Below, piece by piece: positions 31,355-32,104 of a DNA stretch of 64,000 bases (positions within the stretch are counted from its first letter, which is position 1; every line of letters starts with the position of its first letter). A program made the position numbers and the translations under genes. Under the pieces are notes generated by a model that searched no databases, had not been told where the DNA came from, and was given only the letters and a program-made list of their open reading frames with translations. The stretch lies in assembly GCF_006345805.1 (NCBI RefSeq), contig NC_042999.1:71920001-71984000 (forward strand). The letters run 5' to 3'. Source of the stretch: Octopus sinensis (taxonomy: Eukaryota).

Positions 31355-31474
31355 TATAATATATATAGAAACTCGGGGTGAGTACTTGATAATTATAAGC
31401 ACCTGTGTATACCGTTTGGTGGTGTAGGTGGTGGAGTAAATTGATCAAAATAAAAACATGATGCCAAGGATTCA

Positions 31475-31552
31475 GCGGTACATATGTTTCGGGCCTTTAT
31501 TAGACAGATTTATAACAATGCATAATGTATGTCTGTGGCCTTCTTCAGCCGC
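31475..31552 (-). ncRNA. Hammerhead ribozyme with extended stem II (antisense arm)
   Basis: Mirror of 31991-32068. Confidence 0.78.
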
Positions 31553-31990
31553 GCACAACAGCTTCCACAAGGACATGTGTTACATCAAAAATTCTTGGTT
31601 GGGGATGCAAATCCTCTCATTCGCGTACGACATAATGCGGCAACAGCATAGAATTGAAGCGTCCATCTCTTTCTTCTCTCAATGTAGAATGAGGAAATTT
31701 GGATGTTGAAGTAATGTAAGTAAATAAATACATATATAGACGTGAAGATGGAGGGGCGAGAATTCAGGACGAGGGATAAAAAATGTATAAAAAGTGTAAG
31801 TATAGAAAAGTATAAAAATGTAGAGTATAAAGATATAAAGGGATATAAGGAGATTCTACATTGAGAGAAGAAAGAGATGGACGCTTCAATTCTATGCTGT
31901 TGCCGCATTATGTCGTACGCGAATGAGAGGATTTGCATCCCCAACCAAGAATTTTTGATGTAACACATGTCCTTGTGGAAGCTGTTGTGC

Positions 31991-32068
31991 GCGGCTGAAG
32001 AAGGCCACAGACATACATTATGCATTTTTATAAATCTGTCTAATAAAGGCCCGAAACATATGTACCGC
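31991..32068 (+). ncRNA. Hammerhead ribozyme with extended stem II
   Basis: GCGG-CTGAAGA-AGGCC-(41 nt with ACAGA/TCTGT helix)-GGCCC-GAAA-CATATG-TA-CCGC, palindromic stem III ACATATGT, GUA triplet. Confidence 0.78.
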
Positions 32069-32104
32069 TGAATCCTTGGCATCATGTTTTTATTTTGATC
32101 AATA

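What the first reader, a model, noticed from the sequence alone, without database searches (positions are those of the whole stretch)
31369..32103. Second, unrelated two-ribozyme palindrome with enlarged stem II and a one-sided tail
Seen: 251-bp arms with one mismatch, a 162-bp purine-rich spacer, and an HHR in each arm whose stem II carries a 41-nt insert with its own helix. A ~70-bp extension (31369-31439) follows only the minus-strand arm. The unit looks like a MITE with TIRs but carries retroelement ribozymes. Known: PLE pLTRs can have a short tail on one copy. Inference: two independent families giving the same geometry 1.4 kb apart suggests a general class of palindromic, ambisense-ribozyme non-autonomous elements.
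Basis: partly seen in the sequence, partly recalled or inferred. Interest (0 to 1): 0.74.

Follow-up and report, generated by a model that had tools for sequence, protein, structure and literature searches.

The report
Head-to-head Penelope retroelement stub
This 735-base palindrome is two cut-down, mirror-image end pieces of a very abundant Penelope-like retrotransposon sitting in an AT microsatellite, each carrying that element's predicted self-cutting hammerhead motif; the layout is already described for these elements and was likely made in one insertion event, so it is an ordinary repeat copy and not a new kind of mobile element.

Summary
The arms are 251 nt (31440-31690 / 31853-32103) with one internal mismatch, the spacer is 162 nt, and a 68-71-nt extension sits on one side. 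A hammerhead-like motif lies in each arm.

The reading as a MITE-like, non-autonomous palindromic element does not hold for this locus. 31369-31854 (minus strand) is the last 486 nt of a 4,769-bp autonomous element. That element has one 836-842-aa ORF whose model matches telomerase RTs best, a C-terminal GIY-YIG-like domain, and Hydra-clade Penelope-like (PLE) sequence marks. 31853-32103 (plus strand) is the same terminus without the tail.

Of 53 distinct sampled loci, 24 carry such head-to-head pairs. Every junction differs, and the window's junction was found nowhere else. Nearly all 3' ends abut (TA)n. In 10 of 12 unbiased pairs exactly one arm has the tail.

This matches published PLE architecture (Craig 2021; Cervera 2014) and the in vitro finding that a PLE protein cuts and extends both target strands from two RT start sites (Frangieh 2024). 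The scan reached the same reading before, once in this genome.

Modestly new points: the hammerhead's 51-nt helix II, the long tail, the one-tail-per-pair rule, and a 5'-end hot spot near -320.

The parts
31270..31367 (.). (AT)n microsatellite, left flank (target)
   Evidence: TRF: period 2, 50.5 copies
31369..31854 (-). Copy A: last 486 nt of the Penelope-like element (5'-truncated, with tail); its 3' end is at 31369
   Evidence: Matches 1-486 of the query in at least 40 other loci at 96-99%. Maps to -486..0 of the natural full-length copy L047 2024-6792.
31369..31439 (-). Tail: terminal 68-71 nt of the element, AC-rich, present on this arm only
   Evidence: The partner arm and all 7 partners whose 3' end is visible stop at -68 to -81. 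Solo tail-less copies also exist.
31475..31552 (-). Minimal hammerhead motif of copy A; predicted cut 3' of 31479 on the minus strand
   Evidence: Descriptor hit. Same sequence as the family majority form.
31691..31852 (-). The '162-bp spacer': element positions -486..-323 of copy A (3' UTR sequence)
   Evidence: Contiguous with copy A in all long copies
31853..32103 (+). Copy B: element positions -322..-69/-71, tail-less, head to head with copy A (2-nt overlap at the junction)
   Evidence: L001/L116
31991..32068 (+). Minimal hammerhead motif of copy B; predicted cut after 32064. It carries the single private change (32027) in the helix II insert.
32102..32163 (.). (AT)n microsatellite, right flank (target)
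   Evidence: TRF: period 2, 32 copies

Best explanation
The palindrome is two 5'-truncated copies of the 3' end of a 4.8-kb Penelope-like retrotransposon lying head to head in an (AT)n microsatellite, and it was likely made in a single insertion in which both cut strands of the target primed reverse transcription, one from the element's outer start site (giving the 68-71-nt tail) and one from an inner start site 68 nt upstream (no tail).

Shown here:
- Both arms are identical to the terminus of an autonomous element.
- That element's ORF model is telomerase-RT-like, and its C-terminal domain carries Hydra-clade PLE marks.
- Head-to-head pairs with unique junctions are frequent.
- 3' ends abut (TA)n.
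- The hammerhead-like motif is conserved in the sense strand.

Inferred:
- The two arms arose in one event. The two cDNAs would grow toward each other and be joined by short microhomology (2 nt here).
- The template was an RNA not cut at its hammerhead, either more than unit length or circular. The start sites lie 42 and 110 nt downstream of the predicted cut, and 6 of 30 copies run 12 nt on into the element's 5' end.
- The hammerhead is predicted to act only as a dimer of two sense copies.

In a transcript across this palindrome the two arms would instead pair into a ~250-bp hairpin. The 'two-ribozyme' layout therefore has no function of its own.
For: Identity of the element:
- 40 further places match 1-486 at 96-99%.
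- homology runs on for more than 2 kb from a constant end, with variable far ends.
- a natural tandem (L047) defines a 4,769-bp unit with an 81-nt 5' UTR, the ORF, and a 2.18-kb 3' region.
- open frames reach 842 aa.
- the ORF model has pLDDT 81. Foldseek's top 4 hits are telomerase RTs (best 3du5_A, E 4.7e-9).
- the C-terminal domain has invariant C-x-C-x5-C, Y, Y-x-G, R, H, C-x-x-C, E, N and C-x-H across 41 sequences. The top fold hits are the GIY-YIG domains of I-TevI, T4 EndoII and UvrC.
- the Hydra clade is defined by DKT, a CxCX5C linker, no CCHH, CxxC/CxH, (TA)n targets and hammerheads.
- Hydra-1_Obim is listed as a 2,507-bp (TA)n-targeting octopus family with a sense hammerhead.

Architecture:
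- 13 of 30 loci are head to head, all junctions differ, and 7 of 7 visible partner ends are tail-less (5 at -68, one at -75, one at -81).
- (query common to both forms): 14 of 29 distinct loci are head to head. Of 12 pairs with both ends visible, 10 are tailed plus tail-less, 1 is odd (-45/-68), 1 is tail-less on both arms, and 0 are tailed on both. Solo copies are 10 tailed to 5 tail-less. If the two ends chose independently, about 44% of pairs should be tailed on both arms.
- 29 of 30 tailed ends abut (TA)n or (CT)n(TA)n. The 30th is a tandem junction.
- the window's junction is unique among 40 scored places.

Literature (passages read):
- Craig 2021, PMC8557442: inverted 5'-truncated copy, one-sided tail, microsatellite bias.
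- Frangieh 2024, PMC11167929: a PLE protein cleaves and extends both strands; the tail lies between two RT start sites; the start region is AC-rich; uncut RNA is the main substrate.
- Cervera & de la Pena 2014, PMC4209133: minimal dimeric hammerheads with an extra base before helix II and a palindromic helix III; pairs on opposite strands 100-700 bp apart.

Hammerhead:
- descriptor hits and folds.
- the core boxes and helix I are unchanged in 15 of 18 diverged copies; 3 of the 18 carry changes there (L050, L065, L067).
- the motif is 91-95% identical where the upstream UTR is only 62-79%.
- 10 of 78 related metagenomic loci carry a sense-strand motif of the same design, and 0 carry one on the antisense strand.
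Against: - Nothing shows directly that the two arms of this locus arrived together. (TA)n is a hot target, and two separate hits cannot be excluded for a single locus.
- Pfam does not recognise the ORF. Homologues reach only sub-threshold GIY-YIG (4 of 26; 2 of 41) and RVT_1 (2 of 26). Profile searches of PDB sequences found nothing useful.
- The GIY-YIG fold hits are not significant (best E 0.23).
- The element is 4.77 kb, against '<3 kb' for described Hydra families.
- No Rfam hammerhead hit.
- No compensatory change in any helix within the family: 0 of 21 pairs.
- Helix II needs either an A.C mismatch or a bulge next to the core.
- In vitro, Frangieh et al. saw no difference in start site between the two strands. 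The one-tail-per-pair rule seen here is therefore not predicted by their data.
- One pair (L105) is tail-less on both arms.
Confidence: 0.8

Rival explanations
1. Two independent insertions of the same abundant element into one (TA)n microsatellite, in opposite orientation, that happen to abut.
For: 29 of 30 copies sit in (TA)n. The family has more than a thousand candidate places. Some loci hold three copies, for example L106.
Against: No (TA)n is left between the two 5' ends here (2-nt overlap). 5'-to-5' abutment occurs in 24 of 53 distinct loci, while only 2 tandem loci were seen. There are 0 of 12 pairs tailed on both arms, although solo copies are 2:1 tailed. The arms differ at 1 of 251 positions.
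Confidence: 0.08
2. One priming event followed by fold-back (snap-back) copying of the first cDNA, or L1-style twin priming on a single unit-length RNA.
For: Some pairs are almost perfectly symmetric at the centre: L098 312|314, L099 318|322. There is microhomology at the window's junction.
Against: Twin priming on one RNA copies each segment once, but both arms here hold the same -322..-69 segment. In 4 pairs the inverted partner reaches further 5' than the tailed copy (570|1328, 1108|2876, 935|3573, 1706|4044); the tail-less state of the partner is seen in one of them (L017), the others are cut by the locus edge. A partner longer than the tailed copy cannot be a fold-back copy of it. A fold-back from a tail-less arm cannot create a tail.
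Confidence: 0.07
3. One reading: a MITE-like, non-autonomous palindromic element with ambisense ribozymes that moves as a unit.
For: It has inverted terminal arms and is small. A second, unrelated short family 1.4 kb away recurs as head-to-head pairs in many loci.
Against: The unit and its junction occur once among the scored places. Arm lengths and junctions differ in every pair. The ends are asymmetric (one tail). The sequence is collinear with an autonomous element. Short arms carry no private variants.
Confidence: 0.03
4. Assembly artefact or post-insertion inverted duplication.
For: Craig et al. 2021 note that such structures trouble assemblies.
Against: The same asymmetric design recurs in 24 of 53 loci with microsatellite on both sides. 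The arms are of unequal length and differ by one base.
Confidence: 0.02

Closest known systems
Hydra clade of endonuclease-bearing Penelope-like elements (Craig et al. 2021, PMC8557442; e.g. Hydra-1_Obim in its supplementary metadata)
   Same: Single ORF with an RT followed by a C-terminal GIY-YIG-type domain. DKT in place of DKG. CxCX5C linker. No conserved Cys pair between GIY and YIG. CxxC and CxH around the conserved E and N. Insertion into (TA)n. A sense-strand hammerhead near the unit boundary.
   Different: The unit is 4.77 kb, not under 3 kb, because of a 2.18-kb low-complexity 3' region. The hammerhead has 51 nt between its core boxes, against 12-25 nt in 10 relatives and a 7-bp stem with an 8-nt loop in Hydra-1_Obim. 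Placement in an RT tree was not tested.
Standard PLE insertion architecture: pLTR, adjacent inverted 5'-truncated copy, one-sided 30-40-bp tail (Craig et al. 2021 fig. 2 legend; Evgen'ev & Arkhipova 2005 as cited there)
   Same: Tandem partial copies (L047, L094). An inverted 5'-truncated partner at the 5' end. A tail at one end only. Heavy 5' truncation.
   Different: The tail is 68-71 nt. Here the 'full' copy is itself only 486 nt, so the whole insertion is a small palindrome.
Minimal hammerheads of metazoan PLEs (Cervera & de la Pena 2014, PMC4209133)
   Same: Type I layout with a 4-bp helix I. An extra base between position 9 and helix II. No stable helix III but a palindrome that allows a dimer. 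The motif sits in the terminal repeat. Pairs occur on opposite strands 100-700 bp apart.
   Different: Helix II is extended by a 41-nt insert with two predicted inner helices. The base pair next to the core is not a clean G-C unless one C is bulged. Activity is untested.
PAc (Poseidon PLE of Anolis) reconstituted in vitro (Frangieh et al. 2024, PMC11167929)
   Same: AT-rich targets. Both strands cut and extended. RT starts inside the RNA at two nearby sites, and the tail lies between them. The start region is AC-rich. The hammerhead cut site lies just upstream of the start sites.
   Different: It belongs to a different clade. In PAc the boundary lies inside the ORF. In vitro there was no strand difference in start site, whereas here pairs carry exactly one tail in 10 of 12 cases.
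Animal non-LTR retrozymes (tandem hammerhead repeats; Li et al. 2026 preprint, abstract read)
   Same: Short hammerhead-bearing sequences derived from PLE terminal repeats.
   Different: Retrozymes are direct tandem repeats thought to give circular RNAs. This locus is an inverted pair of truncated copies of an autonomous element.

Membership tests
Penelope-like elements, EN+ | Reverse transcriptase closest to telomerase RTs | tested here: met
   The ORF model (pLDDT 81.4) matches telomerase catalytic subunits first: 3du5_A at E 4.7e-9, with ranks 1-4 all TERT. A YxDD motif is visible. Pfam RVT_1 is not significant for this protein; it appears in 2 of 26 homologues at best E 3e-4. No RT tree was built.
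Penelope-like elements, EN+ | GIY-YIG endonuclease fused to the RT | tested here: inconclusive
   Y, Y-x-G, R, H, E and N are invariant in 41 sequences. Top fold hits are I-TevI, T4 EndoII and UvrC GIY-YIG domains, but the best E is 0.23 with TM 0.64 to the target. Pfam GIY-YIG is sub-threshold in 4 of 26 and 2 of 41 homologues.
Penelope-like elements, EN+ | Partial tandems (pLTR), frequent 5' truncation, adjacent inverted 5'-truncated copy, tail at one end | tested here: met
   Tandem loci L047 and L094. Variable 5' ends from a constant 3' end. 24 of 53 distinct loci are head to head. Tail on one arm in 10 of 12 pairs.
Penelope-like elements, EN+ | Hammerhead motif in the terminal repeat, sense strand | tested here: met
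   The motif's predicted cut lies 110 nt from the unit end. The same design occurs in 10 of 78 related loci, on the sense strand only. Cleavage itself is not testable here.
Hydra clade of PLEs | DKT for DKG; CxCX5C linker; no CCHH; CxxC and CxH flanking E and N | tested here: met
   DKT is read in the translation. Invariant C4, C6, C12, C101, C104, E107, N122, C131 and H133, with no invariant Cys between Y25 and Y38, are seen.
Hydra clade of PLEs | Insertion into (TA)n | tested here: met
   29 of 30 tailed 3' ends. The window unit lies between two (AT)n arrays.
Hydra clade of PLEs | Short elements (<3 kb); placement with Hydra families in an RT/EN tree | tested here: not met
   The unit is 4,769 bp. 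The excess is a 2.18-kb non-coding 3' region. Tree placement was not tested because no named reference sequences were at hand.
MITE / TIR transposon | A unit bounded by terminal inverted repeats that recurs intact, with symmetric ends | tested here: not met
   The whole unit and its junction were found only in the window. The ends are asymmetric (tail). A target-site duplication cannot be read in (TA)n.
Hammerhead ribozyme (Rfam Hammerhead_1 and relatives) | Core CUGANGA...GAAA...UH with helices I-III, scoring above the family threshold | tested here: inconclusive
   Core boxes and helices I and II are present. Helix III forms only as an intermolecular palindrome. No Rfam hit at gathering score or at E<=1. 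No covariation within the family.
Hammerhead ribozyme (Rfam Hammerhead_1 and relatives) | Self-cleavage | not testable with these tools
   The runs held were contigs only. Contig ends near the predicted site occur in DNA runs too.

The most novel reading that the evidence does not exclude
The doublets are footprints of a dimeric PLE particle that holds two RNAs paired through the hammerhead's palindromic helix III. The two protomers start at fixed, different sites, which gives exactly one tail per insertion. The recurrent ~250-nt tail-less arm (5' ends at -312 to -337 in 9 of 23 tail-less copies) is a run-off copy to an RNA 5' end, that is, a transcription start inside the terminal repeat. On this reading the minimal hammerhead serves mainly as an RNA dimerisation and packaging element rather than as a cutter.
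Probability: 0.12. Interest if true: 0.6.

Novelty: new member of a known kind. Interest (0 to 1): 0.27.

Why it matters
- For annotation: small perfect palindromes with 'TIRs' in (TA)n microsatellites of this genome are PLE stubs, not MITEs. They should be masked with the parent family.
- For mechanism: the population of insertions gives in vivo support for what one in vitro study reported, namely that both target strands prime and that there are two RT start sites. It adds a coupling rule that the in vitro data did not show: one tail per pair, with 0 of 12 pairs tailed on both arms.
- Copies that run 12 nt into the element's 5' end show that the template spans a unit boundary, and every copy crosses the uncut hammerhead. 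This bears on the open question of what the PLE hammerhead is for.
- Thousands of such near-perfect hairpins would also be a source of long double-stranded RNA if transcribed. This was not tested.

Tried and rejected
- Rfam, at gathering score and at E<=1 on 28000-34000, gave no hammerhead. The only hits were microRNA-like hits on AT/GT repeats and on the neighbouring hairpin centre.
- Pfam on the ORF and on homologues gave nothing at threshold.
- PDB sequence searches with the single protein and with profiles gave nothing useful.
- Within-family covariation: 21 sequences, 13 distinct, 0 of 21 pairs with compensatory change. The sequences are too alike to test the helix II insert.
- Private variants in short arms: only 3 informative sites, with the same major alleles in short and long copies.
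- RNA evidence: no RNA holder listed. The runs guessed to be RNA are contigs only. Their ends at L047 1910-1921, near the predicted cut at 1913/1914, are matched by contig breaks in DNA-sized runs, and one contig of run X3 bridges the site. This is therefore no evidence on cleavage.
Conservation of the N-terminal and RT motifs across homologues was therefore not examined.
- VIA-align searches could not be started because the machine was busy. No Z-scores are available for the GIY-YIG match.
- ARAGORN found no tRNA in 28000-34000.
- The near-place look-up of earlier notes returned nothing.

Full report
**1. What is there**

The window holds an inverted repeat with arms 31437-31690 and 31853-32106, 99% complementary and 162 nt apart. 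Checked base by base, the true arms are 31440-31690 and 31853-32103 (251 nt). They have one internal mismatch, at 31516/32027. (AT)n arrays lie directly outside, at 31270-31367 and 32102-32163. The 68-71 nt at 31369-31439 have no counterpart on the right.

**2. What it is**

Searching the whole unit in the window's own genome gave one full match, the window itself. It also gave 40 places that match only positions 1-486 at 96-99%; these were 40 scored of 1,812 first-look candidates. Among 30 fetched loci the homology starts at one constant end and runs on for up to more than 2 kb, with variable far ends. This is the signature of a 5'-truncated retroelement whose 3' end is at 31369.

One locus is a natural tandem (L047). 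It defines a 4,769-bp unit:
- an 81-nt leader;
- an ORF of 836 aa from the first ATG (open frames up to 842 aa);
- a 2.18-kb low-complexity 3' region;
- a conserved terminal block of about 340 nt.

The left part of the finding (31369-31854, minus strand) is the last 486 nt of this unit. The right arm (plus strand) is positions -322 to about -69 of the same unit. The 'spacer' is just the extra 162 nt of the longer copy.

**3. The parent element is a Penelope-like element (PLE)**

Pfam does not recognise the ORF, and sequence searches of the PDB find nothing. A model built on 26 homologues (pLDDT 81.4) matches telomerase catalytic subunits first. The best is 3du5_A at E 4.7e-9, and ranks 1-4 are all TERT. 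Prokaryotic RTs, group II intron RTs and LINE RTs follow.

The C-terminal 144 aa, aligned with 40 relatives, have invariant C-x-C-x5-C, Y, Y-x-G, R, H, C-x-x-C, E, N and C-x-H. Their model (pLDDT 82.5) matches the GIY-YIG domains of I-TevI, T4 EndoII and UvrC best. The E-values are not significant, however (best 0.23, target TM 0.64).

These marks, together with DKT in the RT N-terminal region and (TA)n targeting, are the ones Craig et al. 2021 list for their Hydra clade (section 11 read in full). Their supplementary table lists an octopus family, Hydra-1_Obim: 2,507 bp, (TA)n, sense hammerhead. The feature-based atlas search points to the same architecture. I did not build an RT tree. The length criterion (<3 kb) is not met.

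**4. The palindrome is a by-product of integration, not a mobile unit**

In the first sample, 13 of 30 loci carry an inverted partner abutting the 5' end of the tailed copy. Every junction is different: 486|322, 991|600, 574|332, 1134|320, 570|1328, 770|682, 861|386 and so on. All 7 partners whose 3' end is visible lack the tail.

That sample was biased toward tailed copies. I therefore drew a second sample with a 156-nt query common to both forms. All 40 scored places were 100% identical to it, out of 1,699 candidates.
- Of the 29 distinct loci, 14 are head to head.
- Of the 12 pairs with both ends visible, 10 are tailed plus tail-less, 1 ends oddly (-45/-68), 1 is tail-less on both arms, and none is tailed on both.
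- The 15 solo loci are 10 tailed and 5 tail-less.
- With two thirds of ends tailed and independent choice, about 44% of pairs should be tailed on both arms. The chance of none in 12 is about 0.001 (my arithmetic).

A 118-nt probe across the window's central junction was spanned only by the window, among 40 scored of 1,234 candidates. Short arms share the major alleles of long copies at the three informative sites. Taking both samples together, 24 of 53 distinct loci are head-to-head pairs.

**5. Target and start sites**

Twenty-nine of 30 tailed 3' ends are followed by (TA)n or (CT)n(TA)n. The 30th is the tandem junction. Six of the 30 continue for 12 nt into the element's own 5' end before the microsatellite starts. 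Their template therefore spanned a unit boundary, as a tandem transcript or a circle would.

Tail-less ends fall at -68 to -81. The tail is AC-rich. This is the pattern that Frangieh et al. 2024 (main text read) obtained in vitro with an Anolis PLE:
- AT-rich target;
- both strands cleaved and extended;
- reverse transcription starting inside the RNA at two nearby sites, with the genomic 'tail' between them;
- uncut RNA as the main substrate.

The simplest account of the window's unit is therefore two target-primed reverse transcriptions at one cut (TA)n site, one from the outer and one from the inner start. The two cDNAs would be joined where they met (a 2-nt overlap here). That the two arms arrived together is inferred, not shown.

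**6. The hammerhead**

Each arm carries GCGG / CUGAAGA / A / GGCC-[41 nt]-GGCC / C / GAAAC-AUAU-GUA / CCGC in the element's sense strand. The predicted cut lies 110 nt from the unit end.
- A descriptor of this design finds 6 sites in the window and none in 100 shuffles.
- The 78 nt fold into helices I and II. Two copies co-fold with an 8-bp intermolecular helix III, like the compact motif of the neighbouring element.
- This is the minimal, dimer-dependent hammerhead described by Cervera & de la Pena 2014 (parts 1-2 of the text read). It includes the extra base before helix II and the palindrome in place of helix III. They also report low activity in vitro, and pairs on opposite strands 100-700 bp apart.
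- Across four diverged copies the motif is 91-95% identical and the terminal block 83-93%, against 62-79% for the UTR upstream.
- Within the family no pair shows a compensatory change: 0 of 21 pairs over 13 distinct sequences.
- In 78 related metagenomic loci, 10 have a sense-strand motif of the same design and none an antisense one. Their core boxes are 12-25 nt apart, against 51 nt here. The long helix II is a peculiarity of this family.
- Rfam reports no hammerhead for either element.
- Activity could not be tested. The runs available were contigs only and gave no evidence either way.

**7. Consequences for function**

The two motifs of the palindrome lie on opposite strands. A transcript through the unit contains one hammerhead and its complement, and it folds into a hairpin of about 250 bp (-499 kcal/mol). 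The pair cannot act as a double hammerhead in cis.

Both RT start sites lie downstream of the predicted cut, and every copy runs through the motif. The RNAs that were copied had therefore not been cut there, or had been religated.

**8. Further observations**
- The 5' ends of tail-less copies cluster at -312 to -337 (9 of 23).
- Three pairs have both arms ending there.
- The cluster coincides with the start of the conserved terminal block.

This may mark an RNA 5' end or an RT stop. I could not tell which.

**9. Comparison and verdict**

Architecture, target, tail and ribozyme are all as published for PLEs. Earlier reports of this scan, read after my own analysis, reached the same reading on other DNA and once in this genome. 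The family is a new or at least distinct member of a known kind. The locus itself is an ordinary young repeat copy.

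Noticed in passing
window 29451-30125: Neighbouring, unrelated hammerhead family. It forms a perfect 164-nt palindrome (29724-29887 / 29889-30052), and the plus-strand copy runs on by about 73 nt (a tail). A third direct copy lies at 29451-29672. All sit in (TA)n. Its compact motif is CCAC/CUGAAGA/.../GAAAC-AAUU-GUA/GUGG. In the genome the 237-nt unit recurs at 97-100% in 40 of 40 scored places. Many of these have an inverted partner covering 1-168 and centres that vary by 0-31 nt. 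Homology between loci is confined to about 650 nt, so this family does look short and non-autonomous.
   Followed up: partly
window 435-476 and 988-1032 (+): Two more minimal-hammerhead-like motifs found by the same descriptor. They have palindromes GUAC and CUCGAG in place of helix III.
   Followed up: no
L047 4616-6792 (natural full-length copy): The element carries a 2.18-kb non-coding region between its stop codon and the conserved terminal block. The region is rich in TA/TG-type low-complexity sequence and diverges fast between subfamilies (62-79% identity). This makes the element nearly twice as long as described Hydra-clade families.
   Followed up: partly
loci L003, L004, L005, L011, L018, L028 (3' ends): Six of 30 copies continue past the usual 3' end with the first 12 nt of the element's own 5' end before the microsatellite. 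This shows templates that span a unit boundary.
   Followed up: partly
loci L001, L012, L013, L098, L099, L100, L105, L107, L112: The 5' ends of tail-less copies cluster at -312 to -337 from the unit end (9 of 23). The window's right arm is one of them. The cluster sits at the edge of the conserved terminal block. A TATATAT run lies about 45 nt upstream.
   Followed up: partly
L105 1498-1858 and 3011-3083: This is the only pair with both arms tail-less. A separate 73-nt fragment consisting of the tail alone (-73..0, 100% identical) lies 1.15 kb away, next to another (AT)n.
   Followed up: partly
window 32165-32300: Directly right of the (AT)n flank lies a tRNA-like sequence that I recall as the head of a cephalopod SINE. 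ARAGORN calls no tRNA there.
   Followed up: no
L031 3078-3737 and 3832-8821; L032 4008-4826: Next to other copies of the element lie a non-LTR-type RT frame, a 2.5-kb inverted repeat at 93% identity, and a Tc1/mariner-like transposase frame.
   Followed up: no
runs X1-X20 (coded): The terminal 486 nt are held by runs under five organism labels. In DNA-sized runs the summed contig depth of the terminal block is roughly a hundred times that of the 5' leader, in line with heavy 5' truncation. The tool warns that depth is not a copy number.
   Followed up: no
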